The position numbers and the translations under genes were made by a program. DNA of 32,000 bases from Thermodesulfobacteriota bacterium (lineage in GTDB: Bacteria > Desulfobacterota > WTBG01 > JAGOGO01), in contig CP113000.1 in assembly GCA_026625185.1 (NCBI GenBank), forward strand, positions 1,275,622-1,307,621, in the 5' to 3' direction. The notes beneath the pieces were generated by a model that was not told the DNA's origin, searched no databases, and saw only the letters and a list, made by a program, of their open reading frames with translations. Below are positions 4,824 through 25,200 of this stretch, piece by piece; position 1 is the stretch's first letter; each line of letters starts with the position of its first letter.

Positions 4824-4874
4824 TTAAATCTCCTTTCGCTTTTTGCATTCACTTCTTTTAGGAACCCTCTCTTT

Positions 4875-6362: not shown

Positions 6363-6389
6363 TTGTTTCTTCCTCTCTGCTCAAAAAAC

Positions 6390-6634
6390 TAATTAGTTCA
6401 TCCTGAACAATACGTTCTTTTGATGGAAATTGTTCTTTGAAAACCGAATAGAATTGTGAAATAGGGACCTCCTTGTCTGCCGACAGGCAGGCTATAGTGC
6501 TTTTCCAATGCCTCATGCAAACTGTCCCGGTCAATAAGATTGGCAGCACGCATGAGCTCGTGGTCAGAATCTAATTGATCCGAAAAGATTAACTCAAACA
6601 TCGGAAGTTGCCATTCCGCTATTTTGATTGACAT
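6390..6634 (-). pseudogene. Frameshifted, truncated N-terminal remnant of an IS5-like (DUF772-type) transposase
   Basis: The minus-strand frame gives MSIKIAEWQLPMFELIFSDQLDSDHELMRAANLIDRDSLHEALEKHYSLPVGRQ. This follows the DUF772 N-terminal pattern QLxlFE...L..DHxLr....lIDw..l.e.l...YS..GRp. Homology then appears to continue in another frame (..VPISQFYSVFKEQFPSKERIVQDEL..). No DDE catalytic domain follows. Confidence 0.4.
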
Positions 6635-6782
6635 TTCAATTTATTATATCATGAGATCATCAGAAAAACCGGAGGGTTTTTTGCAATTCTATTCAATTTT
6701 CAAAGAGCCGCTCAGTATTAATAAGGGTTTTAAAGCCTTTTTTCAGGGTGGACTAATTATTAAAAATTTTTTTCTATTTTTA

Positions 6783-9131: not shown

Positions 9132-9219
9132 CTGTGTCCTCCTTAAAATAGCAGTAACGTGCAACCCAATTCAAAATTCCACCTCATTGTCTCACGAAAG
9201 AATAAAAGGCGCGTAACAT

Positions 9220-10248
9220 TTATCTGAAAATGCTACAGGTAAGAGTTTTTGGGTTTACCGTGAGAATTTTACCTGCTTCGCCCACGACAAAAATCTTTTC
9301 GCTGCCGGCTGATGCAATCCCTTCAAACCAATTGACCCCTATTGACTTCGGAAGACACACCTTCGACCAGTGGCCTCTATAATCAGTCATTGAAAGAACT
9401 GTTCCCTTTAACCCTACCACATAAGCACAGCCGTCAATGAACTTGACCTTAAGAAGGCTGGCGCCGGCTCCGCTACCGCTATCTATCTCTTCCCACGTTG
9501 TCCCGCCGTCGAAACTTCTCAACGAATATCCACTCATTCCCACAGCTATTCCCACTCTACCATCATCCGTAAAATCAATGCTGTTGAGGCTCGGGTGGGA
9601 AGCCTCAAGCTTCTCTACGTCTAAAGTCCTCTCTTCCCCCATAACCCTCTTAAAAGTTACCCCTCCATCCTCGGTCAAGATAATGGTGCCGAACTCTCCC
9701 ACAACAAAGCCCTTTTTAGAATCAAGGAATTTCACATCCTTCAGGACCAATTCCTCACCAGTAGACAGAACTTCCCAACTCTTACCACCATCGGCGGTAC
9801 GGAGGATGGTATGCGATTGCCCGACCGCCCATCCTTCCAAACGGTTGAGAAAACAGACCGCGCTGAGGTCATTTCCCGTGCCGCTTATTTGCTTTCTCCA
9901 GGTCTTGCCGCCATCTGAAGTTGAAAGAATTACTCCTTGAGTTCCCACGATCCACCCATAGTCTGCATCCCCAAAAGTAACTGCGGTTAAAAGTTCCTTG
10001 GTGCCGCTTTCTTGTAATTTCCAGGTTTCTCCTTCATCAGGGCTATAGAGAATAGTCCCGTAATATCCCACTGTATACCCGTGCCTCTCCACAAAACAGA
10101 CATCGTACAGGGAATCCCCGATTGAGCTTTGTCTTCCCCTCTCACCTACCTCCGTCTTTTTTGCATTAGGAAGCATTGAATGGCTGATGATTACGAGCCC
10201 CAACAAGAATCCTATGACCATTACCCATTTATGGATCACTCTTGTCAT
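9220..10248 (-). CDS. BNR/Asp-box beta-propeller protein (Ycf48/Hcf136-like), membrane-anchored or secreted
   Basis: The 342-aa ORF has an SD (AAAGGAGAG-N5-ATG) and an N-terminal hydrophobic anchor. It contains repeated SxDxGxTW Asp-box motifs: SPDEGETW, STSDGGKTW, RTADGGKSW, TEDGGVTF and SFDGGTTW. Confidence 0.8.
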   Translation of the reverse strand: MTRVIHKWVMVIGFLLGLVIISHSMLPNAKKTEVGERGRQSSIGDSLYDVCFVERHGYTVGYYGTILYSPDEGETWKLQESGTKELLTAVTFGDADYGWIVGTQGVILSTSDGGKTWRKQISGTGNDLSAVCFLNRLEGWAVGQSHTILRTADGGKSWEVLSTGEELVLKDVKFLDSKKGFVVGEFGTIILTEDGGVTFKRVMGEERTLDVEKLEASHPSLNSIDFTDDGRVGIAVGMSGYSLRSFDGGTTWEEIDSGSGAGASLLKVKFIDGCAYVVGLKGTVLSMTDYRGHWSKVCLPKSIGVNWFEGIASAGSEKIFVVGEAGKILTVNPKTLTCSIFR

Positions 10249-10405
10249 TTCTTCTCTCCTTTTCTTTTGGAATGAGGCAAAATAATACCCTGAAATTCAA
10301 GTCGATGCAGGTCCTTTTTCTTTACAACTAATTGATACTTTATTGTTTTTATCCTAATTTTAATAAAACGTTGGGACACTACTGGCTTACAATAAAAAAA
10401 AAAGC

Positions 10406-10434
10406 TTGACAATTAAAATTATGATAGCTATATT
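10406..10434 (+). promoter_or_regulatory. Sigma70-type promoter, repeat copy 1 (TTGACA-N17-TATATT)
   Basis: The -35 hexamer TTGACA is at 10406-10411 and the -10 hexamer TATATT at 10429-10434, separated by a 17-nt spacer. An A10 run lies immediately upstream in the UP-element position. Confidence 0.55.
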
Positions 10435-10532
10435 GTGATTAAATTGTGAATACGGCCTTTGACCAAAATAAAAGCAAAAGTTTAAAGTCAAAACCGATTT
10501 TCCTATAACAACGGTAAGCGAGAAAAAAAGGC

Positions 10533-10561
10533 TTGACAAGTAAAATTATGATAGCCATATT
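10533..10561 (+). promoter_or_regulatory. Sigma70-type promoter, repeat copy 2 (TTGACA-N17-CATATT)
   Basis: The -35 hexamer TTGACA is at 10533-10538 and the -10 hexamer CATATT at 10556-10561, separated by a 17-nt spacer. An A-run lies upstream. Confidence 0.5.
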
Positions 10562-10658
10562 GTGATTAAATTGTGAATACGGCCTTTGACCAAAATAAAA
10601 GCAAAAGTTTAAATTCAAAAAGGATTTTCATATAACAACGGCAAGGGCGAAAAAAAGC

Positions 10659-10687
10659 TTGACAAGTAAAATTATGATAGCTATATT
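10659..10687 (+). promoter_or_regulatory. Sigma70-type promoter, repeat copy 3, proximal promoter of the bam operon (TTGACA-N17-TATATT)
   Basis: The -35 hexamer TTGACA is at 10659-10664 and the -10 hexamer TATATT at 10682-10687. The predicted TSS is near 10694, which leaves a ~130-nt leader before the bamB ATG at 10825. Confidence 0.65.
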
Positions 10688-10723
10688 GTAATTAAATTGT
10701 GAGTACATTTTAAGCAATTTCAA

Positions 10724-10824: not shown

Positions 10825-12789
10825 ATGAGGTACTCAGAGACAGGGTTTAATTTAGAAATTGACCTATCCCGGGGAAACATTGAGAGGGTTGAAACCGACC
10901 CACGATTAACCGAGCTTTATCTGGGGGGTCTCGGTACTAACGCCAAGATATTATGGGATAGGGTTCCCCCAGAAACTGATCCCTTTTCGCCTGACGCTCC
11001 CCTGATTTTCAGTTCAGGCCTTTTAGGCGGCACAATTGCTCCCGGCGCTAATCGCACCATTATTACTGCTTACTCCCCTCAGACTCTTCTAATGGGATTT
11101 TCAATGATGGGGGGATTTTTTGCGCCGGAAATGAAGTATGCCGGATATGACAAAATCATTTTTCGCGGCAAGTCCCCCGATCTGGTCTATTTGTGGATAA
11201 ATAATGACAAAGTAGAAATACGTGATGCCGCTCATCTCCGTGGTAAAGGCGCTGTTGAAACTCAAGACATTATACGGAAGGAGTTGAATCAGCCGAGCGC
11301 CCATGTGGCTGCTATCGGTCTGGCCGGTGAAAACCGGGTCTATACGGCTTCCATCGAGCAGGGCAGGTCCAGCGCCAGCCGGCTCGGATTAGGAGCTGTG
11401 ATGGGAGACAAAGGGATAAAGGCGATAGCTGTTCGTGGGACAAATGACATCAATATTGCTCGGCCGGATGAATTTATAAAGCTTTGCAACGAAGTGCTGG
11501 AATATATAAAATTCCGAAACGCGAATCCGGTTCCGAACATAATGACCATTTTACAGGGGCTTGGTTCACCTCAAGAGATGGTGGAGACTGATGAGAAATG
11601 GCACACCGAGAATTTCAGTTGGGGAAATTCCCGCATTCGTAGAAAAGACTTCTGGACCAAGGAAATTGAAGAGAGATGGAAGAGTGTTCAATTAGATGTG
11701 CGGAAGCGGTTAATTAGCTGCTACAACTGTCCGATGAAATGCGGGGCAATAATTGCCGTCCCGGGACTTTCGATCTATATGATGAAATGCTTCACAAAAC
11801 TAACCTATACAATGGGAGCTTTAGTAGACGACCTGGATTTTGGTTTTAGAATCTCTCAACGCGCTGCGGAATATGGAGTGGACGGATTTTCAACCCCGCA
11901 AATTATGGCCTTCGGCTTCGAGCTTAAAGAAGCCGGCATTTTGACTGACGCGGATTTTGAAGGATGCCCTTCCGATAACGAGGGAAGATTTTACTGGCTC
12001 CTTGACAGAATTGTCCGGCGGGAAGGGATAGGAGATATCCTGGCTGATGGCACGCATTGGGCGGCCAAAAAGATCGGTAAGGGAGCAGAAGCGTACGTTC
12101 ACAACAATATCAAGAAGCATGAGCAGCTGCCTCTTAAGCTTGGAATGCTGAACCCCGTCTATTACCTGATGTATGCCACCGGCGAGAAAGCAAACATAAC
12201 GCAGATTGAAGGGCAGTTCCCCCAGGCGCCTTTCATGACCATGGAGGAAAGAGAAGCATTTGTAAAGGATTGGTTCCAGGTTCCTGATGAAAAGTTTAAA
12301 CAATATGTTCTGGACTGGGAACCGCGGGGAGAGCACTCAAATCCATTGTACCCGACTGTTGACATGTCCGTTGACATTGTTGACTGGCAAGAAAAAATGC
12401 ATTACATTGATGACGCCCTCGGGGTGTGCGCCGGTTTGTCATCATTTCCTCTGAAGCCTCCTTATCATATGCACAATTACCCCCATTTTATCTCATCAGC
12501 GAGCGGGATTGATATGGATGAAACCGGACTAACGGAAGTATATAATAGGAACCGCAATCTGGTTAGAGCCATTAATGTGAGAAGAGGCATGAGGAGAGCC
12601 GATGAGGATCCGCCCGAAGACCATTGGAAGAAAAGATTCCCAGAGCTTGAAAAAAAGCTCCTGGATGCTTATTACAAATTTAAGGGGTGGGATGATGATG
12701 GTATCCCTACGAAAGAGACATTACAGAAATTGGATCTGGGCTACGTTGCCGAAGACTTAGAACAGAGAGGTATTATAAAAAATGGCTAA
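10825..12789 (+). CDS. bamB: Class II benzoyl-CoA reductase active-site subunit BamB (tungsten bis-pyranopterin enzyme, aldehyde:ferredoxin oxidoreductase family)
   Basis: The 654-aa ORF has an AOR-family N-terminus (MRYSETGFNLEIDLSRGNIERVETDP..LYLGGLGTNAKILWD) and the [4Fe-4S] motif LISCYNCPMKCG. Long stretches such as NNIKKHEQLPLKLGMLNPVYYLMY and GLSSFPLKPPYHMHNYP match what I recall of Geobacter BamB. It is followed by the full bamC-I set. Confidence 0.88.
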   Translation: MRYSETGFNLEIDLSRGNIERVETDPRLTELYLGGLGTNAKILWDRVPPETDPFSPDAPLIFSSGLLGGTIAPGANRTIITAYSPQTLLMGFSMMGGFFAPEMKYAGYDKIIFRGKSPDLVYLWINNDKVEIRDAAHLRGKGAVETQDIIRKELNQPSAHVAAIGLAGENRVYTASIEQGRSSASRLGLGAVMGDKGIKAIAVRGTNDINIARPDEFIKLCNEVLEYIKFRNANPVPNIMTILQGLGSPQEMVETDEKWHTENFSWGNSRIRRKDFWTKEIEERWKSVQLDVRKRLISCYNCPMKCGAIIAVPGLSIYMMKCFTKLTYTMGALVDDLDFGFRISQRAAEYGVDGFSTPQIMAFGFELKEAGILTDADFEGCPSDNEGRFYWLLDRIVRREGIGDILADGTHWAAKKIGKGAEAYVHNNIKKHEQLPLKLGMLNPVYYLMYATGEKANITQIEGQFPQAPFMTMEEREAFVKDWFQVPDEKFKQYVLDWEPRGEHSNPLYPTVDMSVDIVDWQEKMHYIDDALGVCAGLSSFPLKPPYHMHNYPHFISSASGIDMDETGLTEVYNRNRNLVRAINVRRGMRRADEDPPEDHWKKRFPELEKKLLDAYYKFKGWDDDGIPTKETLQKLDLGYVAEDLEQRGIIKNG

Positions 12790-13327
12790 GGTTAAGAAGA
12801 AAATCAAGTCAATCAAGATCGATCTTGATAAATGCAATGGTTGCCGGGCATGTGAGGTGATTTGCTCAGCTTTTCATGCGAGCCCGAAATACAGCGGCGC
12901 CAATCCAGGGAGGGCCCGTATTCGGATGATTCGCGACCCGTTAAGAGACGTATATGTTCCTGTATATGCGGGTGAGTATACCCCTGCCGAATGCATGGGC
13001 AGAGACAAATATGTAATTGACGGAAAAGAATACGATGAGTGTGGCTTTTGCAGAGCTTCCTGCCCATCCAGAGACGCCTTCAAAGACCCCGATTCAGGTC
13101 TTCCTCTAAAATGCGATATGTGTGAAGATGATCCGCCGCAAGAAAAGCCCTTGTGTGTTCAGTGGTGTTTAAATGATGCCCTGATTTACGAAGAAAGGGA
13201 AGAGGAAGTAGAAGAAGAAGAAAGTCCTGAGGCCTTGGAGGTTGGGGTTAAAGCATTGACAGACAAATTTGGATTGGACCAGATAATGGATGCCGTTGCC
13301 CGAATGTCAATGTCAAAGAAAGGCTAA
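12782..13327 (+). CDS. bamC: BamC, poly-[4Fe-4S] ferredoxin-like electron-transfer subunit
   Basis: The 181-aa ORF overlaps the bamB stop by 8 nt (ATGGCTAA), implying translational coupling. Cys clusters include CNGCRACEVIC, CGFCRASCP and CDMCEDD..CVQWC, and the tail is acidic. Confidence 0.8.
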   Translation: MAKVKKKIKSIKIDLDKCNGCRACEVICSAFHASPKYSGANPGRARIRMIRDPLRDVYVPVYAGEYTPAECMGRDKYVIDGKEYDECGFCRASCPSRDAFKDPDSGLPLKCDMCEDDPPQEKPLCVQWCLNDALIYEEREEEVEEEESPEALEVGVKALTDKFGLDQIMDAVARMSMSKKG

Positions 13328-13420: not shown

Positions 13421-14572
13421 GTGGAGATGGTAGCACCCTTACAAGAAGTAATAGATCTAACAAAAAATGCCGGTGGGGAATCCTTCAAATTCTGCTATCA
13501 ATGCGGATTATGCGATGTTGTTTGTCCGTGGAATAGGGTTAGAACCTTTAGTATGCGCAAGTTAGTCCGGCAGGCTGCGTTTGGTTTGACCGAGATAGAA
13601 CATGAAGAGATATGGCGTTGTACCACTTGCGGAAGATGCCCTCAGCAATGCCCCCGTGGAGTAGAACAGATAAAACTTGGGGTATCCTCGCGCAGAATTG
13701 CCTCGGAATACGGAGTTTTTCCTGCTTCGGTCACTCCGGTGCGCGGGGTAAGCGCAAGTCTTGTTGCCGAAGGCAACCCCTTGGGTGAAGAGCGCCAAAA
13801 GCGGGCAAATTGGGCGGAAGGTCTGTCAGTAAAACCGTTTACCGCGGGGATGGAAATTTTGTATTTTCCCGGCTGCTACTTAAGCTATGACCCGAGATTA
13901 AAAAAGGTATCCCGAGCCACTGCCACCATCCTTAAAAAGGCAGGGGTAGATTTTGGGATATTGGGTGCCAAGGAGAACTGTTGTGGAGAAAGCATCCGCA
14001 AGACTGGCAATGAGGAAGTATTCAAACAATTAGCCAGGGAAAACATCAAAACTTTTATTGATAATGGGGTGAAGAAAATTTTGGTTTCTTCTCCTCATTG
14101 CTACCACACTTTCAAAAACGAGTACCCCGAATTCATGGTGAACTTCGAGGTGGTTCATATCGCCCAATACTTATTCGATCTTATTAACGAGGGAAGGCTT
14201 GCGATCACCAAGGAGTATGGGAAGAAAATTACCTATCATGATCCCTGTTACCTGGGCCGACATAACGGCATATTTGACCAACCCCGAGAGGTCTTAAAGA
14301 AGATACCCGGCATAGAACTGAATGAGATGCCGGATTCGCGAAAAAATAGTCTCTGTTGCGGCGGCGGCGGAGGCCGGATTTGGATGGAAACTCCAAAGGG
14401 TGAGCGATTCTCCGACCTCAGAGTAGTGCAAGCTGTTGGCGTCGGAGCTGACGTTTTGGTTACTTCCTGCCCTTACTGCATTTCAATGTTTGAAGACAGC
14501 AAGTTAACTCTGAAGGATAGTGATGCCTTAGAGATTAATGACATCACGGAAATTATCCAGGAAGTGATTTAG
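13421..14572 (+). CDS. bamD: BamD, HdrD-like subunit (2x[4Fe-4S] ferredoxin domain + two CCG domains)
   Basis: The 383-aa ORF contains CYQCGLCDVVCP and CTTCGRCPQQCP motifs. Two CCG-domain motifs follow (GAKENCCGES...SSPHCYH and SLCCGGGGGRIW...TSCPYCISM). The start could be GTG 13421 or ATG 13427. Confidence 0.85.
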   Translation: MEMVAPLQEVIDLTKNAGGESFKFCYQCGLCDVVCPWNRVRTFSMRKLVRQAAFGLTEIEHEEIWRCTTCGRCPQQCPRGVEQIKLGVSSRRIASEYGVFPASVTPVRGVSASLVAEGNPLGEERQKRANWAEGLSVKPFTAGMEILYFPGCYLSYDPRLKKVSRATATILKKAGVDFGILGAKENCCGESIRKTGNEEVFKQLARENIKTFIDNGVKKILVSSPHCYHTFKNEYPEFMVNFEVVHIAQYLFDLINEGRLAITKEYGKKITYHDPCYLGRHNGIFDQPREVLKKIPGIELNEMPDSRKNSLCCGGGGGRIWMETPKGERFSDLRVVQAVGVGADVLVTSCPYCISMFEDSKLTLKDSDALEINDITEIIQEVI

Positions 14573-14590: not shown

Positions 14591-15388
14591 ATGCAAGAAG
14601 CGATTGACGTATCAGCCCTGAAAGGTGTAGTAGCGGGCATGACCTGTGATCGGTTTTCAGACGAGGGATGGGTGAGGACCTCAGTTTACGCGCCTAGTGA
14701 GATGCAACTGAAAATTTATATAAATCAGCAGGAACTGGTCTCCATCCTGTGCACTCCAACCAAGCTGAATTGCCTTGCCTTCGGGTTCCTGTACACCGAG
14801 GGAATCATCTCCGGCATCGGCGACGTGGCGGGCATGCGGGTGTGTGAGGATGACTCGCTGGTCGATGTGAGGCTGAGCAAAACCGAGTTTAAATTGCCGA
14901 CCCTGCGGACACTTACCTCTGGGTGCGGTGGCGGTGCAATTTTCAAAACTGAGGGACAAAGGGTTGATTCTGGTCTTACTGTTACACCAACGGAAGTGCT
15001 GGCGCTGATGAAAAAGCTTCAAGGGCAGATGCAACTCTTTCGGCTTAGCGGCGGCGTGCACACTTCAGCTCTGTCCGATACCAGGAACCTGTTGGTGGTG
15101 GCTGAGGATATCGGACGGCATAACACCTTTGACAAGATTCAGGGCGAATGTCTATTGAGGAAACTATCAACCAAAGATCGACTGGTACTAACCACCGGTC
15201 GCGTTTCGTCCGAGATGTTGCTCAAGGCGGCAAAGATGAAGGTACCGGTTGTTGCAACCCGGCACTCGCCGACGGAGCGAGCTATTTCGCTTGCTCTTGA
15301 TCTGGGTATTGCTTTGGTTGGCTATGCCCATGGAAACAGTCTGTCGGTCTATTCCCACCCGGAACGACTTGGGTGGTCGACAAATTAG
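14591..15388 (+). CDS. fdhD: FdhD-family sulfurtransferase/cofactor-insertion protein, embedded in the bam operon
   Basis: The 265-aa ORF carries the FdhD hallmarks GGVHTSAL, EDIGRHNTFDKIQG and VVATRHSPTERAI. Its Cys loop reads LTSGCGGGAIF, with a single Cys where E. coli-type FdhD has SSCGVCG. Confidence 0.8.
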   Translation: MQEAIDVSALKGVVAGMTCDRFSDEGWVRTSVYAPSEMQLKIYINQQELVSILCTPTKLNCLAFGFLYTEGIISGIGDVAGMRVCEDDSLVDVRLSKTEFKLPTLRTLTSGCGGGAIFKTEGQRVDSGLTVTPTEVLALMKKLQGQMQLFRLSGGVHTSALSDTRNLLVVAEDIGRHNTFDKIQGECLLRKLSTKDRLVLTTGRVSSEMLLKAAKMKVPVVATRHSPTERAISLALDLGIALVGYAHGNSLSVYSHPERLGWSTN

Positions 15389-15454: not shown

Positions 15455-18400
15455 GTGGAAAATGTAATAATGCTCAAAGAAAATATTCAAGAACTTGGTA
15501 AAACTCTTGGAGCCAATAGTGTTGGCGATGTCATGATTATAGGTGGAGGGATCAGCGGTATTCAAGCGTCTCTTGATCTTGCCAATGCGGGTTTTAAGGT
15601 TTACCTGGTTGAGAAAGCGCCGTCCATTGGGGGCCATATGGCCCAGCTTGACAAGACCTTTCCAACCAATGACTGCTCAATGTGAATACTTGCACCCAAA
15701 CTGGTCGAGGTCGGCCGGCATCCCAATGTAGAAGTCCTCACCTATACTGAAGTTGAGAGTGTAGCAGGGGAAGTAGGAAACTTTAAGGTAACCCTGGTTA
15801 AAAAGCCCAGGTATATTCTAGAGGACAAATGCACGGGCTGTACTACCTGTGTAGAGTACTGCCCGGTCAAATACCCTGATCAATATAATCAGGAAATATC
15901 GAAGAATAAGGCAGTCCATGTATATTTCGCTCAGGCGATTCCACTTATCACTTATATAGATGAAAGCTGTCTTTATCTTAAAGAGGGCAAATGTCGTATT
16001 TGCGAAGCAGTATGTAAGAATAAGGCGATAGATTTCAATCAAACGCCGGAAAAGGAAGAAGTAAGTGTAGGGGCGATCATTCTGGCTCCCGGCCTTGAGC
16101 CGTTTGATCCTAAGGTAAGGGAGGAATATCGGTACGGAGAGTTTCAGAACGTGGTAACCAGTATGGACTATGAGCGACTGTTATGCTCCACCGGACCATA
16201 CCAAGGTGAGATACTCCGTGCTTCCGACCTGAAGCATCCCCATAAAATAGCTTGGATTCAATGCGTCGGTTCCAGACAGGTTATCGAGGGCGGTAACAGC
16301 TATTGTTCAGCCGTATGCTGCACGTATACCCAGAAACAGGCGATTTTGACAAAGGATCATGATGCCGGGGCAGAGTGTGTAATATTTCATAATGATATTC
16401 GTTCCTATGGGAAGGATTTTGAGCGATTCTACGAAAGGACCGAGAAACTTCCCGGGGTTCGATTTATCAGGAGCTACACATCAATTGTTAAGGAGAACCC
16501 GGAAACCAAGAATGTCACCATACGGTATTCTACACCCGATGATGGAGTAAAAGAGGAAGAATTCGATATGGTGGTACTGTCCGTCGGATTGAATCCTCCT
16601 GCGGATGTATTGGACCTGGCAAAAAAATTCGGCATTAAACTAAATCCTCACGATTTTTGCAACCTCAATCCTGTCAATCCTATGGAGACCAACAGGCCTG
16701 GGATCTTTGTAAGCGGAGGTTTCCAGGGACCTATAGATATTCCCGAGTCGGTTTTCAGCGCCAGCGGGGCCAGCTCCCAAATTGGTGAGCTTCTTGACTA
16801 CCGGCGAGGAATTCTTTCCAAAGAAAGGATCTATCCGCCGGAAAGGGATGTCTCCAAAGAGGATCCAAGGATAGGGGTCTTTGTGTGTCATTGTGGGGCT
16901 AATATCGGAAGGATAGTCAATGTTCCTGAAACAGTTGAATATTGCAAATCCTTACCCAATGTTGTCTACGCCCAGGAGCAGCTGTTTTCCTGCGCTACTA
17001 ATTCCGCCAAAGAAATAACGGACATGATCAAAGAAAAAGGGCTCAATCGAGTGATTGTCGCCGCCTGCTCGCCCAGGACCCTTGAGCCGCTATTCCGGGA
17101 TACTGTTCGGGAGGCAGGAATCAATCAATACTACTTTGAAATGGCAAACATTAGGGAGCATAACTCCTGGGTCCACTCGAAAGAAAAGGAAGAAGCCTCC
17201 GAAAAGGCACATGATATAATCCGGATGTCGGTAGCGCGAGCCTGCCATTTGGAGCCATTACAGGAATTTGATCTACCGGTCAACAAGGCGGCGTTAGTGG
17301 TTGGAGGAGGGATAGCCGGCATGACTAGTGCTCTCTCCATAGCCAACCAGGGGCATGAGGTTCACCTGCTGGAAAAGGATACAGAGCTTGGGGGAATAGC
17401 ACGGAGAATTCATGATACGCTGGAAGGACTGGATGTTCAGGCGTATTTGCGCGATCTGATAAGAAAGGTATATCAACACCCTTTAATACATGTATATCAT
17501 GATACCACCATCACCGGGGCGACAGGTTATGTGGGAAATTTCGTAACCAAGGTGAAGTCTGACAGAGGAGTCACAGAGATAAAACATGGCGCATCCGTCA
17601 TCGCAATAGGGGTTGATGTATATAAACCTGCCGAATACCTTTATGGAGAAGACGACCGGGTCTTGACCCATCTCGAGTTGGAGGAACAGATCACCAAAGG
17701 AAACGAAAAGGTGATTAACGCAGAAAGTCTCGTGATGATACAATGCGTGGGCTGCAGAAATGAGGAGAGAAATTATTGCAGCAGGCTGTGCTGCAGCGAG
17801 TCGGTCAAAAACGCTTTGAAACTGAAAAAAATAAACCCCAAAATGAATATTTACATCCTCTTTCGGGATATAAGAACATATGGATTCAAAGAGGATTATT
17901 ACCGGGAAGCTGCGGATAAAGATGTAAAGTTCATTCGCTATGAACCGGAAGATCCACCGGAGGTGAAAGCTGTTAAAGATGGCGGTAAGAGCATTCTAAA
18001 GGTTTCCTTGCCGGATTATATTTTAGGGCAGAAGCTTGAAATAGATGCGGATATCATTTCCCTGGCCGCCGCTGTTGTTCCTTCTTCAGCCACCAAGGAG
18101 GTCGCCGGATTATTCAAGGTGACTTTGAGCCCGGATGGCTTCTTCAAAGAAGCCCATGTTAAATTAAGACCGGTTGAGTTTGCTACCGACGGCGTTTACC
18201 TTTGTGGATTGGCCCACTATCCTAAGTTTATGCAGGAAACGATTAACCAGGCTTATGGAGCTGCTGGCCGGGCCTTAACGCTTTTGTCACACGATATCGT
18301 CATCGCCTCCGGCTCGGTTTGCGGGGTGGATGAGAATAGGTGTGTTTCATGCGGGGCATGTATCACCGTTTGCACCTATGGCGCCATAGAGTTTTATGAT

Positions 18401-18583
18401 ACCCCCCAGGGCAGAAAGGCCAGGGTTAACCCGGTTCTCTGCAAAGGAGATGGTCTTTGTAACACGGTGTGTCCGACAGCGGCTATTTCACTAAAGCACT
18501 TTACCGATGAAGAGATCTTGAGCCAAATTGATGCGGCGGTTCCGGAGGAAGAGATCATACAAAAAATTGAGGCTGCCGCCTGA
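15455..18583 (+). CDS. bamE: BamE, HdrA-like flavo-iron-sulfur selenoprotein; in-frame TGA 15683-15685 read as selenocysteine
   Basis: The start GTG 15455 is preceded by AAGGTGA-N6. The frame is open from 15455 to 18583 apart from one TGA. I translated 15686-16150 by hand and found no stop ([23 protein letters not shown]...[12 protein letters not shown]...[15 protein letters not shown]...[12 protein letters not shown]). The track ORFs 15455-15685 and 16151-18583 are in the same frame. The TGA lies in [14 protein letters not shown], a position I recall as Cys or Sec in HdrA. There are two FAD GxGxxG modules ([17 protein letters not shown] and [17 protein letters not shown]). The product is 1042 aa. 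Confidence 0.85.
15701..15718 (+). other. Candidate bacterial SECIS hairpin for the bamE UGA
   Basis: The hairpin begins 15 nt after the UGA. It reads CUGGUC-GAGGUC-GGCCGG, a 6-bp stem with two G.U pairs. The apical loop contains GGUC, the loop sequence I recall from the E. coli fdhF SECIS. Confidence 0.45.
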
Positions 18584-18653: not shown

Positions 18654-19421
18654 ATGATTTCAGGACTCAAATTTAAGCCAAGATTAATAGGTTTCGTATG
18701 CCACTGGTGAGCATACGGGGCTGCTGACCTGGCTGGAGTTTCCAGACTGCAATATACCACTGAAATGAGGCTTATTCGCGTCATGTGCACCGGCAGAGTC
18801 GACTTGGAACATGTACTCCGGGCTTTCTCGAAGGGAGTGGATGGGGTATTTATTGGCGCCTGCCATCTAAATGAATGTAACTATATTACTCATGGCAACT
18901 ACCATGCATTAACCATGGTGAATATATGTAAAAAAATAATGGAAAACATTGGCCTGAATCCTGAAAGATTAAGGATCCGATTCATGTCCGGCGCTGAAGC
19001 AAGCCTTTTTGTAGAATCTGTTAATGAGTTTGTCAAGACGGTGAAGGAAATAGGCCCCCTTGGCAAAGTCGAAGGAATAAACAAGAATGCATTAAAGGCC
19101 AAGCTTGAGGCCGTGACACAGCTAGTCCCCTACATCAGGTTGGTGGAAAGGGAGAGGCTGCGATTACCTTTTAAATCGGAAGAAGAATATAATAATTTTT
19201 TCACCAGTGACGAATTCAACAAGTTATTTAATGAGTTAATTGTAGAAAAATTGGCAATAAGCCAAATAACCTCACTCTTGCGGGAAAGACCCCTTTCGGC
19301 TGGTAAAATCTCTGAATATTTAGGCCTAGCCCCGTCTGAGGTTTCAAGATACATGAATACTTCATCAAGGCAGGGATTAGTCAGGTATGATGAAGGCCGC
19401 AATTGCTTCGCTCTTGCCTAA
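18654..19421 (+). CDS. bamF: BamF, MvhD-like [2Fe-2S] selenoprotein with C-terminal winged-helix-like extension; TGA 18708-18710 read as selenocysteine
   Basis: The start ATG 18654 has a strong SD (AAGGAGG at 18638-18644). It is in frame with the track ORF that starts at 18765. The N-terminus reads MISGLKFKPRLIGFVCHW-U-AYGAADLAGVSRLQYTTEMRLIRVMCTGRVD. This aligns with the MvhD motif FCCNWCSYAGADLAG, with Sec at the last Cys. The product is 255 aa. Confidence 0.82.
18728..18745 (+). other. Candidate bacterial SECIS hairpin for the bamF UGA
   Basis: The hairpin lies 18-35 nt after the UGA. One fold is CUGGA-GUU-UCCAG (18733-18745). An alternative fold pairs CUGG (18729-18732) with CCAG (18742-18745) and leaves a 9-nt loop containing GG and GU. 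Confidence 0.4.
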
Positions 19422-19528: not shown

Positions 19529-19981
19529 ATGAATAAAGGTAGAGTCGATCAAATTATAGAAAAGCATCATGGCGAAGCCAGTTCGCTCATTCAAGTACTA
19601 CTGGAGATTCAGAGTGAGCATCATTGGCTTCCCAAGGAAGCATTAGATAGGATCAGCGAAAAATTACAAGTTCCTTTAACCAGGATACTTTATATAGCCA
19701 CCTTCTATAAAGCCTTTAGTTTAGTTCCTAAAGGACGTCATGAAGTTCACGTTTGTGTTGGTACTGCCTGTCATGTTCGCGGCGCGCCGCGTATCCTTGA
19801 CACGGTGCAAGACCTGACTGGAATTAAACCCGGCGAAACGGACGCAGATTTGAAGTTTAGCCTGGAGACTGTTAATTGCCTCGGCTGCTGTGCTTTAGGA
19901 CCGGTGTTGGAAGTCAATGGAAAGACTTACGGTAACATGGGGCCATCCAAGACCGCAGAGGTGTTAAAAAACTACGAATAA
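19529..19981 (+). CDS. bamG: BamG, NuoE/HoxE-like [2Fe-2S] subunit
   Basis: The 150-aa ORF has thioredoxin-like [2Fe-2S] motifs CVGTACHVRG and CLGCCALGP. Confidence 0.85.
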   Translation: MNKGRVDQIIEKHHGEASSLIQVLLEIQSEHHWLPKEALDRISEKLQVPLTRILYIATFYKAFSLVPKGRHEVHVCVGTACHVRGAPRILDTVQDLTGIKPGETDADLKFSLETVNCLGCCALGPVLEVNGKTYGNMGPSKTAEVLKNYE

Positions 19982-19990
19982 GGAAAAATT

Positions 19991-21919
19991 ATGTTAAGGA
20001 TAAACTCCCCTGAGGAGTTAGAAAAACTCAGACAAGAAATTTTATCCCGGAGTGACCCAAGCAAACCTTGCATTTCAATATGCGCTGGCGCCGGTTGTCT
20101 TGCTTCCGGTGCAGGTGAAGTTATAGCCGCCTTTAAAGCAGAGATTGAAAAGCAAGGCTTAACGACGGATGTGAATACCAAAGGAACCGGGTGCCCTGGA
20201 TTTTGTGAAAGAGGACCCGTTGTGATTATTTATCCTGAGGAGATATGTTATCTCCGGGTAAAGCCTGATGACGTTCCCGAGATTATCTCACAGACTATAA
20301 GGGAAAAAAGGGTTGTCGACCGTCTATTATATGTTGACCCAACCACCGGCGAAAAAGCAATTCATGAATCCGACATCCCCTTTTATAAGAATCAAAAACG
20401 AAATCTTATCAGCTATAATAGTAAGATTGATTCCAAGAGCATTGATGACTATTTGGCGATCGGTGGTTATTCCGCATTAGCTAAAGTCCTTTTCAAGATG
20501 ACCGCCGAGCAAGTATTGGAAGAAGTCAAAAAATCCAACCTGAGAGGAAGGGGGGGTGGCGGCTTTCCCGCAGGGAATAAGTGGGAGGGATCCCGCAATG
20601 CTCCTGAACCAATCAAATATGTGCTCGTCAATGCCGATGAGGGTGACCCTGGGGCATTTATGGATAGAGCTCTCCTTGAAGGAAACCCTCATTCAATCCT
20701 TGAGGGATTGACTATTGGAGCTTACGCTATCGGCTCCCACGAGGGTTATATTTACGTGAGGCAGGAATATCCCTTAGCGGTAGTAAATGTGAACATCGCC
20801 ATCAGGCAGGCCGAGGAATATGGTTTGCTTGGGAAGAACATACTCGGGTCTGGTTTTGATTTCACTGTTAAAGTTCACCAGGGAGCCGGCGCTTTTGTCT
20901 GTGGTGAATCAACGGCTTTGATGACGGCATTGGAAGGCAGGGCAGGAGAGCCCAGACCGAAGTATATCCGCTCCAACATCGTGGGCCTTTGGGGTCGGCC
21001 CACCGTTTTGAATAATGTTGAGACCTGGGCAAATGTGCCGCTTATCATCAATAAGGGCGCAGATTGGTTTACTCAATTTGGAACTGAAAAGAGCAAGGGC
21101 ACGAAGATCTTTTCCCTGGTTGGGAAGATAACCAATACCGGGCTTGTGGAAGTGCCCATGGGCATCACCCTGAGAGATATTATTTACAAGATAGGCGGTG
21201 GAATCCCAGGAGGCAAGAAGTTCAAAGCCGTGCAGACCGGGGGACCGTCCGGAGGATGTATCCCTGAGAAACTGTTAGATTTGGAAGTTGGTTTTGATGA
21301 ACTCACCAAGGCCGGTTCAATGATGGGTTCAGGTGGGATGATCGTAATGGATGAAGATACCTGTATGGTTGACGTCGCCAGGTACTTTCTTAACTTCCTC
21401 ATCGATGAATCGTGCGGCAAATGCACCCCATGCCGTGAAGGCATCAGGCAGATGCTTAAGATTCTCACTAATATCACTAAAGGAAAGGGAAAAGAGGGCG
21501 ACATCGAGCTTTTGGAGGAATTAGCCGAAGTAGCCATCGATGCCTCACTATGTGCTTTAGGGAAGAGTGCCCCTAACCCGCTTCTCAGCACGGTGCGATA
21601 CTTCAGAGATGAGTATGAGGCACACGTCAAGGAGAAAAGGTGCCCGGCTTTATCCTGCAAGGAGCTGATCGCGTACCATATTGACCCGAGTAAGTGCCAG
21701 GCATGTATGATTTGCCTTAAGAAGTGCCCTGCCGACGCTATTGAAGGCGGCAAGAACCGGATCCATGTAATTGACCAGGGAAAATGCACAAAGTGCGGAA
21801 CTTGCATTGAAGTTTGCCCCGCTCGCTTTGGTGCTGTAAATAAGATTTCAGGCCAGCCTGTTCCGGCTCCTATCCCTGAAGATGCAAGAACTTTAGTCAG
21901 AAAGAGTAAAGAACAATGA
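19991..21919 (+). CDS. bamH: BamH, NuoF/HoxF-like FMN- and NAD(P)H-binding iron-sulfur subunit
   Basis: The 642-aa ORF has an N-terminal thioredoxin-like [2Fe-2S] domain (CAGAGCLASG...CPGFCERGP). It also carries the FMN/NADH motifs GRGGGGFPAGNKW and ADEGDPGAF, the [4Fe-4S] motif ESCGKCTPCREG, and a C-terminal 2x[4Fe-4S] ferredoxin (CQACMICLKKCP and CTKCGTCIEVCP). Confidence 0.88.
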   Translation: MLRINSPEELEKLRQEILSRSDPSKPCISICAGAGCLASGAGEVIAAFKAEIEKQGLTTDVNTKGTGCPGFCERGPVVIIYPEEICYLRVKPDDVPEIISQTIREKRVVDRLLYVDPTTGEKAIHESDIPFYKNQKRNLISYNSKIDSKSIDDYLAIGGYSALAKVLFKMTAEQVLEEVKKSNLRGRGGGGFPAGNKWEGSRNAPEPIKYVLVNADEGDPGAFMDRALLEGNPHSILEGLTIGAYAIGSHEGYIYVRQEYPLAVVNVNIAIRQAEEYGLLGKNILGSGFDFTVKVHQGAGAFVCGESTALMTALEGRAGEPRPKYIRSNIVGLWGRPTVLNNVETWANVPLIINKGADWFTQFGTEKSKGTKIFSLVGKITNTGLVEVPMGITLRDIIYKIGGGIPGGKKFKAVQTGGPSGGCIPEKLLDLEVGFDELTKAGSMMGSGGMIVMDEDTCMVDVARYFLNFLIDESCGKCTPCREGIRQMLKILTNITKGKGKEGDIELLEELAEVAIDASLCALGKSAPNPLLSTVRYFRDEYEAHVKEKRCPALSCKELIAYHIDPSKCQACMICLKKCPADAIEGGKNRIHVIDQGKCTKCGTCIEVCPARFGAVNKISGQPVPAPIPEDARTLVRKSKEQ

Positions 21920-22542
21920 GTGAAATCATTTTACAGATAGATGGAAAAGAAGTCAAAGCAAAGGAAGGGATGACCGTTTTGGAGGCAGCCCAAAGCGCGG
22001 GGATATCCATACCCACACTCTGTCACCATGAAAAATTGGAACCCTATGGGGGTTGCCGACTTTGTATCGTAGAAGTAGAAGTTCGCGGCTGGACACAGCT
22101 CGTTGTTTCCTGTGTTTACCTGGCGGCAAAAAATTTGATTGTAAGAACTAGATCTGAGAAGGTAGATAGAATTCGCAAAATGATCTTAGAACTATTGCTG
22201 GCTCATGCCCCGGATGCTTTCGAATTGCAGGATTTGGCTAAAGAGTATGGAGCAGACAAAGACCGTTTTGAAAAAGAGTCCTCATTTTGCATTCATTGTG
22301 GTCTATGTGTAAGATATTGTGCTGAGGTCAAGAAGAAGAATGCGGTTGGATTTGTTGACAGAGGAACAAGGAAAGAGATCAGTTTCATTCCAGGGATAGC
22401 ATCTAAGGAATGCTGGAACTGCAAGGAATGTTTTCCGCTTTGCCCTACAGAGGCCTTACAAGCAGCTTTCGTTTTAACCAAAGCGCTCATTTCCTCCCCA
22501 CCCTCCTCCGAACTTGTGTCAGTGGGAATAGGCAAAGATTAA
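21916..22542 (+). CDS. bamI: BamI, NuoG N-terminal-like [2Fe-2S]/[4Fe-4S] subunit
   Basis: The 208-aa ORF has a start that overlaps the bamH stop (ATGA). It begins with a plant-type [2Fe-2S] region (IPTLCHHEKLEPYGGCRLCIVEV), followed by CIHCGLCVRYC and CWNCKECFPLCP. Confidence 0.8.
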   Translation: MSEIILQIDGKEVKAKEGMTVLEAAQSAGISIPTLCHHEKLEPYGGCRLCIVEVEVRGWTQLVVSCVYLAAKNLIVRTRSEKVDRIRKMILELLLAHAPDAFELQDLAKEYGADKDRFEKESSFCIHCGLCVRYCAEVKKKNAVGFVDRGTRKEISFIPGIASKECWNCKECFPLCPTEALQAAFVLTKALISSPPSSELVSVGIGKD

Positions 22543-22733: not shown

Positions 22734-23507
22734 ATGCAGAAGGTAACGTGTGAAAAAATGTTTGATAATCAGGTATGGAAGATTATTCTTAATGATCCCA
22801 AGGGGAATGTGGTTGATTCCATTATGTTAAAGGGATTTCAGGAGGTGCTTGATGAGGTTTCAAAAGAAAAGCATTGCAAATTAATTATTTTTCAGGGCGC
22901 CGGAAGTCATTTTTCCTTTGGAGTGAGTGTGGAGGAACATACCGAAAAACTGGCCGCAGGAATGCTGGCAAGCTTTCACGACTTATTTATTAGGTTAACT
23001 GATTTAGGGATACCGGTTTGCTCTCTGATCTCCGGACAGTGTCTTGGTGGGGGAGTAGAGATCGCCACTTTCGCTCATTTTGTTTTCGCTGATGAGACTG
23101 CCCGGATTGGTCAGTCAGAAGTCGCTCTTGCAGTTTTTGCTCCCCCGGCATCAGTGATATTGCCCCTTAAAGTCGGCCATATGCATGCAGAAGATATTCT
23201 CCTTACCGGTAGAAGCCTTACTGCACAGGAAGCCAAGCAAATGGGACTTTTAAACGAGGTTTATCCTGATAAGAGTACGATGGAACAAAAGGTGAACGAA
23301 TGGATTCAGCAGCAGATTCTTCCTAAGAGTGCTTTCGCCTTAAAGGTGGCCACAAAACAAGTCCGCAAACGCTTCAATGAACGATTAAAGGAAGATTTAC
23401 GGTTTTACGAATCAGTTTATATGAATGAGCTCATGAAGTCTCATGATGGTAAGGAAGGTTTGAACGCGTTTTTAGAGAAAAGGAAACCGGTTTGGACCGA
23501 TGATTAA
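22734..23507 (+). CDS. Crotonase-family enzyme, most likely cyclohexa-1,5-diene-1-carbonyl-CoA hydratase (Dch/BamR-like)
   Basis: The 257-aa ORF has a strong SD (AGGAGGG-N6-ATG). Its motifs GAGSHFSFGVSVEEH, GQCLGGGVEIA, LAVFAPPAS and MNELMKSHDGKEGLNAFLEKRKPVW match my recollection of Thauera Dch (GPHFSFGASVDEH, GQCLGGGLE, LGVFAPAAS, ...EGLKAFLEKR). It lies directly downstream of the bam genes. Confidence 0.65.
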   Translation: MQKVTCEKMFDNQVWKIILNDPKGNVVDSIMLKGFQEVLDEVSKEKHCKLIIFQGAGSHFSFGVSVEEHTEKLAAGMLASFHDLFIRLTDLGIPVCSLISGQCLGGGVEIATFAHFVFADETARIGQSEVALAVFAPPASVILPLKVGHMHAEDILLTGRSLTAQEAKQMGLLNEVYPDKSTMEQKVNEWIQQQILPKSAFALKVATKQVRKRFNERLKEDLRFYESVYMNELMKSHDGKEGLNAFLEKRKPVWTDD

Positions 23508-23540
23508 TTTTTTAAAACAACAGGCGCTGAAGTAATATGA

Positions 23541-23569
23541 GAAAGCCCATCCGGGCTTTCTTTTTATTT
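23541..23569 (+). terminator. Rho-independent terminator of the bam-dch transcription unit
   Basis: GAAAGCCC-ATCC-GGGCTTTC forms a perfect 8-bp stem with a 4-nt loop. TTTTTATTT follows immediately. Confidence 0.85.
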
Positions 23570-25058: not shown

Positions 25059-25200
25059 CTCAATGCCTCCTTTGTTAGTACGCCAATAACAATCGCATAT
25101 AGATTATGGAGTTACGCCACTATTTTTTAATAAAATTGCCACCAGCTTCAATACTAACCATCTTTTACTTGCACCACGGAACGCAACTCACCCGGGGGTG

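What the first reader, a model, noticed from the sequence alone, without database searches (positions are those of the whole stretch)
14591..15388. FdhD-like sulfurtransferase inserted between bamD and bamE, with a single-Cys active loop
Seen in the sequence: a 265-aa FdhD-family ORF (GGVHTSAL, EDIGRHNTFDKIQG, VVATRHSPTERAI) starts 18 bp after bamD and ends 66 bp before bamE on the same strand. Its Cys loop is LTSGCGGGAIF, with one Cys. Established knowledge: FdhD sulfurates and inserts bis-MGD for formate dehydrogenases using a CxxC loop (SSCGVCG in E. coli) and binds the GDP moieties of the cofactor. AOR-family enzymes, including BamB, carry a nucleotide-free W-bis-pyranopterin. As I recall, the BamB crystal structure left the sixth W ligand unassigned. 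I do not recall fdhD in the Geobacter bam operon. Inference: this may be a dedicated maturation factor (sulfido-ligand donor or chaperone) for the BamB tungsten cofactor. That role has not been described for FdhD.
Basis: partly seen in the sequence, partly recalled or inferred. Interest (0 to 1): 0.6.

Follow-up and report, generated by a model that had tools for sequence, protein, structure and literature searches.

The report
FdhD chaperone gene inside benzoyl-CoA reductase operon
A gene for an FdhD-type cofactor chaperone really does sit between bamD and bamE of the tungsten benzoyl-CoA reductase operon; the arrangement is already published for this organism, but its relatives form a distinct clade found at this spot in every case where the neighbouring genes could be read, which suggests, without proving, that it helps mature the tungsten enzyme rather than formate dehydrogenase.

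Summary
ORF 14591-15388 (+, 265 aa) is a full FdhD-family protein (Pfam E=1.6e-66, above the NCBIfam TIGR00129 cut-off, AlphaFold model TM 0.85-0.89 to the FdhD crystal structures). It lies 18 nt after bamD and 66 nt before bamE.

The window is the ORM2a benzene-degrader genome or a near-identical strain. Its bamBCD-fdhD-bamEFGHI-bamR cluster was published in 2026, and the FdhD was detected by proteomics. So the arrangement is not new.

The single-Cys loop is ordinary: 103 of the 133 nearest family representatives and PDB 2PW9 have it.

What goes beyond the literature I could search:
- Every close relative whose neighbouring genes could be read (down to about 42% identity, several phyla) sits next to bamD and/or bamE.
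- The clade co-varies with BamD and is under purifying selection.
- Four of seven sampled sister-group members sit in YdhV/YdhW-type AOR operons.

- BamB's sixth tungsten ligand is now taken to be water.
- Some bam-linked FdhDs have no loop Cys.
- All family-conserved residues are retained.
- Only 9 of 52 bam loci carry the gene.
- The genome has formate dehydrogenases, and I could not test for a second fdhD.

Best reading: an optional BamB cofactor chaperone (about 0.5).

The parts
14591..15388 (+). fdhD-family gene (265 aa), bam-linked clade; flexible loop LTSGCGGGAIF at residues 108-118
   Evidence: family membership. (AlphaFold pLDDT 89.4; TM 0.85-0.89 normalised to the target, 2PW9/4PDE). 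(100% identical over 228 aa to ORM2a WAC09094.1). N-terminal residues 1-37 are conserved in homologues and fold confidently, so the 265-aa start is preferred over the PGAP Met38 start.
10825..12789 (+). bamB, tungsten-bis-pyranopterin catalytic subunit (AOR family); the proposed client
   Evidence: AFOR_N/AFOR_C. (E=0 to G. metallireducens BamB, PDB 4Z3W; Cys322 conserved in YMMKCFTK).
12782..13327 (+). bamC, FeS subunit
13421..14572 (+). bamD, HdrD-like subunit (CCG domains), immediately upstream of fdhD
   Evidence: Its pairwise identity across loci correlates with that of FdhD (r=0.71).
15455..18583 (+). bamE, HdrA-like subunit with an in-frame TGA (selenocysteine) at 15683-15685, immediately downstream of fdhD
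18654..19421 (+). bamF, MvhD-like subunit with an in-frame TGA at 18708-18710
19529..22542 (+). bamG, bamH, bamI (NuoE/NuoF/NuoG-N-terminal-like module); none has a molybdopterin domain
22734..23507 (+). enoyl-CoA hydratase (BamR/dienoyl-CoA hydratase-like), last gene before the terminator-like hairpin at 23539-23562
   Evidence: PMC13101534.

Best explanation
The gene encodes an accessory, non-structural FdhD-family chaperone that has become part of one lineage of class II benzoyl-CoA reductase (bam) operons. It is co-transcribed with bamBCD and bamEFGHI.

Inferred mechanism: like FdhD with formate dehydrogenases, the dimer takes up the finished metal-pterin cofactor from the biosynthetic machinery, shields it, and hands it to apo-BamB before BamB joins the 1-MDa complex. 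Here the cofactor is tungsten-bis-pyranopterin or a late precursor. Sulfur transfer through the loop cysteine may be an optional extra in Cys-bearing members. It is not the conserved core of the function.

The factor improves or secures maturation rather than being indispensable. Most bam operons, including the biochemically characterised Geobacter one, lack it.

Shown: family membership, fold, operon position, clade-specific synteny, co-inheritance with BamD, purifying selection, and expression (from the literature). Inferred: the client (BamB), cofactor binding, and the hand-over step.
For: 1. Synteny. All 19 FdhD relatives (45-98% identity) retrieved from metagenome contigs are flanked by bamD and/or bamE. 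Three deep-branching members (P0127, P0276, P0279) follow AOR-bamC-bamD; bamE is seen downstream for P0279, and an uncalled gap lies there for the other two. D. gibsoniae has bamBCD-fdhD-bamEF. 9 of 52 genome loci have it at the same junction.
2. These sequences form one clade in a neighbour-joining tree of 165 family members.
3. Identity between Desulfobacterota, Bacillota and Chloroflexota members is 70-78%, as for the Bam subunits. FdhD and BamD pairwise identities correlate (r=0.71; 0 of 2000 Mantel permutations reach this).
4. dN/dS is 0.19-0.34.
5. No strong terminator-like hairpin (none with more than 3 G-C pairs) and no promoter-like site better than 9 of 12 on the coding strand flanks the gene.
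6. In ORM2a the protein was detected at 6 spectra, against 61-91 for BamB, BamD, BamE and BamH, as expected for an accessory factor (PMC13101534). It is transcribed in a Peptococcaceae benzene culture (PMC5852087).
7. No Bam subunit here carries a molybdopterin domain, so BamB is the only pterin enzyme in the operon.
8. Other FdhD lineages lie next to bam clusters. Four of seven sampled sister-group members sit in YdhV/YdhW-type AOR operons.
9. A degraded fdhD remnant lies between bamD2 and bamE2 of D. gibsoniae, which has an intact copy in the neighbouring cluster. This shows loss of a redundant copy.
Against: 1. Every family-conserved residue (H157, EDxGRHN 172-178, DK 181-182, GRxSSE 203-208, K212, SPT 226-228) is retained. 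These include the conserved residues said to hold the GDP moieties of bis-MGD (PMC10609526), which BamB's cofactor lacks (PMC12096430). So nothing in the sequence shows adaptation to a new client.
2. 43 of 52 bam loci lack the gene, including all Geobacter-type loci. Active enzyme has been purified from Geobacter metallireducens (literature).
3. No BamB or BamD residue separates loci with fdhD from loci without it.
4. ORM2a has expressed formate dehydrogenases, and the FDH operon I read in the paper's Table S7 has no fdhD. This FdhD may therefore serve them as well or instead.
5. In L097/L088 an intact bam-type fdhD survives beside mere remnants of bamB and bamD.
6. There is no biochemical evidence for any FdhD acting on an AOR-family enzyme.
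Confidence: 0.5

Rival explanations
1. It is an ordinary FdhD that sulfurates and delivers bis-MGD to the organism's formate dehydrogenases. It merely resides in, and travels with, the bam operon. In syntrophic or sulfate-reducing aromatic degraders, formate dehydrogenase activity is needed whenever benzoyl-CoA is being reduced, so co-regulation is convenient.
For: - It passes the NCBIfam FdhD equivalog cut-off and has the canonical fold.
- All family-conserved residues are intact.
- ORM2a encodes and expresses FDH alpha subunits, and the FDH operon I read in Table S7 carries no fdhD.
- An intact bam-type fdhD persists where the local bamB and bamD are degraded (L097), so it can work in trans.
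- Most bam operons do without it.
Against: - A housekeeping FDH factor would be expected to track FDH genes or the species tree. Instead the whole clade, down to about 42% identity to the window protein, keeps one position between two bam structural genes in several phyla and co-varies with BamD.
- D. gibsoniae has two FDH clusters elsewhere in its genome (PMC4148979).
- The sister clade is often in YdhV/YdhW-type AOR operons rather than FDH operons.
Confidence: 0.25
2. One reading: it donates a terminal sulfido ligand to the BamB tungsten centre through a persulfide on the single loop cysteine.
For: - The main clade keeps TSGCGGG with the Cys in 88% of the bam-linked members aligned, in a low-confidence, flexible loop like that of E. 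coli FdhD.
- FdhD is an established sulfurtransferase for FDH (PMC6239281, PMC10609526).
- From memory, unverified here: some archaeal AOR-family enzymes are activated by sulfide.
Against: - BamB's sixth ligand is now described as water/aqua.
- Bam-linked members with Phe or Leu in place of the Cys keep the same operon position.
- The loop cysteines are dispensable even for FDH maturation in some systems (PMC6239281).
- The Geobacter bam locus in the survey lacks the gene, and the enzyme characterised from Geobacter metallireducens is active.
Confidence: 0.08
3. It serves another part of the complex, for example assembly of the unusual non-cubane Fe-S clusters of BamD, one of which carries a terminal sulfur ligand in the Geobacter cryo-EM structure. 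Alternatively it is a decaying passenger with no role.
For: - The gene sits directly after bamD.
Against: - No FdhD-family member is known to act on Fe-S clusters.
- No BamD residue, cysteines included, separates loci with fdhD from loci without it.
- A passenger role is contradicted by dN/dS of 0.19-0.34 and by conservation across phyla.
Confidence: 0.07

Closest known systems
FdhD / FdsC (formate dehydrogenase accessory sulfurtransferase and bis-MGD chaperone; PDB 4PDE from E. coli, 2PW9 from Desulfotalea psychrophila)
   Same: Same Pfam and NCBIfam family and same two-domain fold (TM 0.85-0.89). It has a flexible Gly-rich loop carrying a Cys. All family-conserved residues are present. It is encoded beside the pterin enzyme it presumably serves.
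   Different: It lies inside a tungsten benzoyl-CoA reductase operon with no formate dehydrogenase gene in the 32-kb window. The only pterin enzyme nearby (BamB) carries nucleotide-free W-bis-pyranopterin with an aqua ligand. The clade is specific to the bamD-bamE junction, and some of its members lack the loop Cys.
The ORM2a bam cluster as published (PMC13101534), and the D. gibsoniae and Peptococcaceae bam clusters
   Same: Identical gene order. The window's FdhD is 100% identical over 228 aa to WAC09094.1.
   Different: Those papers list the gene ('an FdhD chaperone', or mislabel it as bamI) without asking what it does or how widespread the arrangement is.
FdhD next to the class V (YdhV-type) tungsten oxidoreductase WOR41 of Cetobacterium somerae (PMC13328260)
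   Same: [quoted passage not shown] I found the same pairing (AOR-YdhW-FdhD) in the sister group of the bam-linked clade.
   Different: A different AOR clade (periplasmic, Tat-dependent, YdhW-associated). The gene lies downstream of the operon rather than between structural genes. It is likewise untested.
System-specific molybdoenzyme chaperones (NarJ, TorD, DmsD, XdhC)
   Same: Accessory proteins encoded inside the structural operon. They are not part of the final complex, and they bind the cofactor and/or the apo-enzyme.
   Different: Unrelated folds, and none is known for AOR-family enzymes. The accessory genes usually seen with AOR-family enzymes are MoaD/ThiF-like (worX, thiF). From memory, unverified here: aorD/aorE of Aromatoleum are of this kind too.

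Membership tests
FdhD/NarQ family (PF02634; TIGR00129) | Full-length match to the family profile above the curated cut-off | tested here: met
   Pfam E=1.6e-66, 224.9 bits (cut-off 27.2), profile positions 2-236 of 237. TIGR00129 scores 167.2 bits against a cut-off of 140.9. NF001943, the enterobacterial-type model, is not reached (168.6 against 269).
FdhD/NarQ family (PF02634; TIGR00129) | Two-domain FdhD fold (N-terminal beta-rich domain plus C-terminal cytidine-deaminase-like/Rossmann-like domain) | tested here: met
   AlphaFold2 model with pLDDT 89.4 and pTM 0.88. Foldseek E=2e-21, TM (normalised to the target) 0.85-0.89 to 2PW9 and 4PDE.
FdhD/NarQ family (PF02634; TIGR00129) | Conserved pocket residues (His of GGxH, EDxGRHN, DK, GRxS(S/Y)E, K, S-P-T) that include the nucleotide-binding set | tested here: met
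   All columns at least 80% conserved in 133 representatives are kept in the bam clade (the only change is T to A at position 241). The actual GDP contacts of 4PDE could not be listed, because the structure paper is not held. This is therefore a proxy test.
FdhD/NarQ family (PF02634; TIGR00129) | Flexible loop with CxxC (E. coli type) used for persulfide relay | tested here: not met
   The loop is TSGCGGG with one Cys. This is not family-defining: CxxC is absent from most of this part of the family and from group III FdhDs (PMC6239281).
Functional FdhD (FDH maturation factor) | Encoded with, or required for, a Mo/W-bis-MGD formate dehydrogenase | tested here: inconclusive
   There is no FDH gene in the 32-kb window. 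The genome does encode FDHs elsewhere. Requirement cannot be tested with these tools.
Functional FdhD (FDH maturation factor) | Binds bis-MGD and receives sulfur from a cysteine desulfurase | not testable with these tools
   This needs biochemistry.
Class II benzoyl-CoA reductase (Bam) operon component | Recurrent, position-conserved presence within bamBCDEF(GHI) clusters | tested here: met
   It is always found between bamD and bamE, but only in a minority of bam loci (9 of 52).
Class II benzoyl-CoA reductase (Bam) operon component | Structural subunit of the purified Bam[(BC)2DEFGHI]2 complex | tested here: not met
   The characterised complexes have eight subunits, BamB to BamI, with no FdhD. 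The Geobacter loci surveyed lack the gene. Its spectral count in ORM2a is low.

The most novel reading that the evidence does not exclude
One wing of the FdhD family is not a formate dehydrogenase factor at all. It would be the missing dedicated chaperone for AOR-family enzymes that carry nucleotide-free bis-pyranopterin cofactors, specifically the BamB and YdhV-type clades. According to a review, these are the only AOR clades with a cysteine ligand to the metal. If so, FdhD-type proteins recognise the metal-bis-pterin core rather than its GDP handles. BamB and YdhV maturation, possibly including a sulfur ligand not yet seen in structures, would then depend on them in the organisms that carry them.
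Probability: 0.3. Interest if true: 0.7.

Novelty: new variant of a known kind. Interest (0 to 1): 0.45.

Why it matters
Class II benzoyl-CoA reductase is a 1-MDa tungsten/selenium machine that has so far been obtained only from native hosts. Nothing is known about how its tungsten cofactor is inserted.

If the bam-linked FdhD clade is the insertion chaperone, three things follow. It would be the first maturation factor assigned to BamB. It would be an obvious gene to co-express when attempting heterologous production of BamB or YdhV-type enzymes. It would also show that FdhD proteins can handle nucleotide-free bis-pterin cofactors, changing the current view that they hold the cofactor by its GDP groups.

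If it simply serves formate dehydrogenases, the finding is an annotation curiosity. Even then, fdhD placement would be a useful marker for one lineage of horizontally spreading bam operons.

Tried and rejected
1. A second fdhD in the same genome. The ORM2a supplement held as text has no 'FdhD' entry, and its FDH operon list shows no adjacent fdhD. The result is inconclusive.
2. GDP-contact residues of 4PDE. The structure paper is not held, and other papers give no residue list. I used family-wide conservation as a proxy.
3. Co-adaptation signatures. I looked for BamB or BamD residues that separate loci with fdhD from loci without it. The best frequency differences were 0.47 and 0.60, with no clean discriminator.
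4. A link between the BamD non-cubane cluster and FdhD. It is not supported by any discriminating cysteine, so I kept it only as a low-probability rival.
5. The idea that the single Cys marks a special variant. Rejected: it is the majority state.
6. The idea that the Cys ligand of BamB is visibly shared by the YdhV-like AOR next to a sister-clade FdhD. The alignment at 32% identity does not place a Cys in the Cys322 column. I therefore rely only on the review's statement and mark it unverified.
7. Literature searches combining FdhD with bam or benzoyl-CoA reductase terms returned only incidental mentions. Subscription papers, such as Loeffler et al. 2011 on bam clusters, could not be checked.

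Full report
**1. What is there**

The ORF at 14591-15388 on the + strand is 265 aa and starts with ATG. It matches Pfam FdhD-NarQ end to end (E=1.6e-66). It passes NCBI's curated cut-off for TIGR00129 (167 against 140.9 bits).

An AlphaFold2 model built on an 88-sequence alignment is confident (pLDDT 89.4, pTM 0.88). It superposes on the two FdhD crystal structures, 2PW9 and 4PDE, with TM-scores (normalised to the target) of 0.85-0.89. The only poorly predicted internal stretch is residues about 101-120, the Cys loop. This matches the disordered loop described for E. coli FdhD (PMC10609526).

The N-terminal 37 residues are conserved in homologues (MQEA...CDRFSDEGW) and fold as confident strands. 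The 265-aa reading is therefore better than the 228-aa PGAP call that starts at Met38.

**2. Surroundings**

The gene lies 18 nt after bamD and 66 nt before bamE. The same-strand run is as follows:
- bamB, an AOR-family gene. It has E=0 to G. metallireducens BamB (PDB 4Z3W), and Cys322 is conserved.
- bamC, then bamD, then fdhD.
- bamE, with an in-frame TGA at 15683.
- bamF, with an in-frame TGA at 18708.
- bamG, bamH and bamI.
- A dienoyl-CoA hydratase-like gene.

No strong terminator-like hairpin (none with more than 3 G-C pairs) occurs before 23539-23562. No promoter-like site better than 9 of 12 on the coding strand flanks fdhD. None of the Bam subunits here has a molybdopterin domain, so BamB is the only pterin enzyme in the operon. 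No other cofactor-biosynthesis gene is in the window.

**3. Provenance and prior knowledge**

The protein is 100% identical over 228 residues to WAC09094.1 of the ORM2a complete MAG. ORM2a is a benzene-degrading Desulfobacterota from a methanogenic consortium.

The 2026 paper on that organism lists exactly this cluster: 'BamBCDEF[G]HI, an FdhD chaperone, and BamR'. It detected the FdhD in the proteome at 6 spectra, against 61-91 for BamB, BamD, BamE and BamH (PMC13101534).

A 2018 metatranscriptome of a Peptococcaceae benzene degrader shows the order bamB, bamC, bamD, 'Sulfur carrier protein FdhD' (mislabelled bamI), bamE on one contig (PMC5852087). The complete genome of Desulfoscipio gibsoniae has bamBCD-fdhD-bamEF.

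The arrangement is therefore already on record. What I did not find in the searchable literature is any analysis of it.

**4. Recurrence**

I surveyed the 80 best BamB loci from one genome per species. Fifty-two resolve the bamD-bamE junction. Nine of those carry fdhD there, and the other 43 go straight from bamD to bamE, usually within 10-60 nt.

I then searched in the other direction, starting from FdhD:
- All 19 relatives in metagenome contigs (45-98% identity) are flanked by bamD and/or bamE.
- The three deepest members I could look up (P0127, P0276, P0279) all follow AOR-bamC-bamD. For P0279, bamE is seen downstream. For the other two, an uncalled gap lies there.

In a neighbour-joining tree of 165 family members, these sequences form one clade with short internal branches.

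Members from Desulfobacterota, Bacillota and Chloroflexota are 70-78% identical, like the Bam subunits themselves. FdhD and BamD pairwise identities correlate (r=0.71; 0 of 2000 Mantel permutations reach this). dN/dS against six homologues is 0.19-0.34.

In D. gibsoniae, a second, adjacent bam cluster carries only degraded fdhD fragments between bamD2 and bamE2. This is direct evidence that redundant copies are lost.

**5. The loop and the pocket**

The single-Cys loop is not special. Of the 133 nearest 50%-identity representatives, 103 have one loop Cys, 24 have none and 6 have two. Desulfotalea FdhD (2PW9) reads TSGCGGTG. Published work already notes that CxxC is confined to part of the family, and that the cysteines are dispensable in some systems (PMC6239281, PMC10609526).

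More telling, some bam-linked members have no loop Cys and still keep the operon position:
- TSGFGKG in L099-L101 and P0125.
- PVGLGGG in P0127.

A persulfide relay through this Cys therefore cannot be the conserved function of the clade.

Every column conserved in at least 80% of the representatives is retained in the bam clade: H157, E172-D173-x-G-R-H-N178, D181-K182, G185, G203-R204-x-S-S-E208, K212 and S226-P227-T228. Only two positions are clade-specific and rare elsewhere, G122 and Q184.

The 4PDE paper is not held, so I could not list the true GDP contacts. This is a proxy, but it gives no sign that the nucleotide-binding face has been remodelled.

**6.

BamB carries W-bis-metallopterin without nucleotides. 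Its ligands are four dithiolene sulfurs, Cys322 and a sixth ligand that current literature describes as water (PMC12096430; bioRxiv 10.64898/2026.04.10.717634, 'W-MPT-OH2'). The premise of an unassigned ligand waiting for a sulfido donor is therefore outdated. Together with the Cys-less members, this makes the sulfido-donor version unlikely (I give it about 0.08).

The broader idea, a Bam-dedicated maturation factor, fits the comparative data well. The most economical mechanism is the chaperone half of FdhD's known activity: binding the finished cofactor and handing it to the apo-enzyme. Because the Geobacter loci surveyed lack the gene, and the enzyme characterised from Geobacter metallireducens is active, the factor must be facultative.

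**7. A wider pattern**

The sister group of the bam-linked clade is mostly from Chloroflexota. I sampled seven members:
- Four lie in operons of the YdhV/YdhW type. L109 reads ferredoxin, AOR (768 bits to the YdhV model NF007354), YdhW, FdhD. L108, L110 and L111 are similar.
- Three do not. L107 and L112 have no AOR nearby, and L113 sits with TatA/TatC and SelA.

Other FdhD lineages also lie beside bam clusters:
- A tandem pair after bamF in Syntrophorhabdus aromaticivorans (L032).
- Single genes in L029, L048 and L063.

A 2026 classification of tungsten oxidoreductases notes an FdhD beside a class V (YdhV-type) enzyme and suggests it 'might be required' (PMC13328260). A review states that BamB and YdhV are the only AOR clades with a Cys ligand to the metal. 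I could not confirm that Cys in the L109 enzyme from a 32%-identity alignment.

Together this hints that part of the FdhD family serves AOR-family enzymes. That is the most novel reading the evidence allows.

**8. What weakens the case**

- ORM2a encodes several formate dehydrogenase catalytic subunits and expresses at least one. The FDH operon I read in the paper's Table S7 has no fdhD. If this is the only fdhD in the genome, it very likely serves those enzymes too. I could not test this.
- No BamB or BamD residue separates loci with fdhD from loci without it.
- In L097/L088, an intact bam-type fdhD sits beside mere remnants of bamB and bamD. The protein is therefore kept without local bam partners, acting in trans on something.

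**9. Verdict**

The arrangement is already published. The 'single-Cys' angle is ordinary, and the sulfido-ligand mechanism is unlikely.

The underlying idea of a Bam-linked role is supported by strong comparative evidence that has not been assembled before. I rate it as a new variant of a known kind, an FdhD-family chaperone with a probable non-FDH client. Interest is moderate. The genome census in the next steps is cheap and would move the estimate substantially either way.

Noticed in passing
window 10397-10706: A 127-bp tandem repeat (2.5 copies, 92% matches) lies in the intergenic region upstream of bamB. Each unit carries a near-consensus TTGACA-17-TATATT promoter-like site (at 10406, 10533 and 10659). 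This could be a duplicated promoter or operator region for the bam operon.
   Followed up: partly
window 15683-15685 and 18708-18710: In-frame TGA codons lie in bamE ([13 protein letters not shown]) and bamF (FVCHW*AYGAAD), consistent with the selenocysteines known for BamE and BamF. ORF finders and the public gene calls split bamE into 71-aa and 810-aa pieces and truncate bamF. bamF probably starts at 18654.
   Followed up: partly
window 14591-14701: The public (PGAP) annotation of this FdhD starts at Met38 (228 aa). Residues 1-37 are conserved across the clade (CDRFSDEGW; F22 and W27 nearly invariant) and are predicted as confident beta-strands. The annotated start is probably too far downstream.
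   Followed up: yes
window 14591-15388: fdhD has 52.6% G+C, against 46.8% for bamB-bamI and 45.7% for the whole window.
   Followed up: no
L103 19371-19700 (Desulfoscipio gibsoniae CP003273): The second of two adjacent bam clusters has degraded, frameshifted fdhD fragments (44-46% identity to residues 133-255) in the roughly 400-nt gap between bamD2 and bamE2. This is a pseudogene remnant of the same arrangement.
   Followed up: partly
L032 18153-19724 (Syntrophorhabdus aromaticivorans UI): Two tandem FdhD-family genes lie directly after a bamF-ferredoxin fusion. The first lacks the Cys loop altogether. The second has SGGGCSA. They belong to a different FdhD lineage (29-31% identity to the window protein). 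L063 has a related loop-less copy upstream of bamB.
   Followed up: partly
L097 5460-6780 and L088 2714-4034: An intact bam-type fdhD (78% identity) is preceded only by short remnants of bamB and bamD and has no bamE after it. It lies among carboxyltransferase, acyl-CoA dehydrogenase and thiolase genes.
   Followed up: partly
L109 4100-8819; L108 661-2257; L110 6129-8822; L111 8001-13344: Sister-clade FdhD genes (Chloroflexota) sit in ferredoxin-AOR-YdhW-type operons. The L109 AOR scores 768 bits against the E. coli YdhV model, and a TatA gene is present in L111.
   Followed up: partly
window 3507-10248 (- strand): A divergently oriented cluster lies upstream of bamB. It encodes DUF1329, DUF1302, an MMPL/RND-type transporter (793 aa) and a BNR/Ycf48-like repeat protein. 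Its function and any link to aromatic metabolism are unknown.
   Followed up: no
window 23907-27183 (- strand): An acyl-CoA dehydrogenase lies next to a 660-aa membrane protein with a nitrate-reductase-gamma-like domain, 4Fe-4S sites and two CCG domains (HdrD/DsrK-like). This may be a membrane electron outlet. [quoted passage not shown]
   Followed up: no
loci L004-L083: Many bam loci are of a short type: bamBCDE, then bamF fused to a BamH-C-terminal-like ferredoxin, with no bamGHI, and often a second HdrD-like gene 1-2 kb downstream. fdhD occurs with both the long and the short type (for example L023).
   Followed up: no
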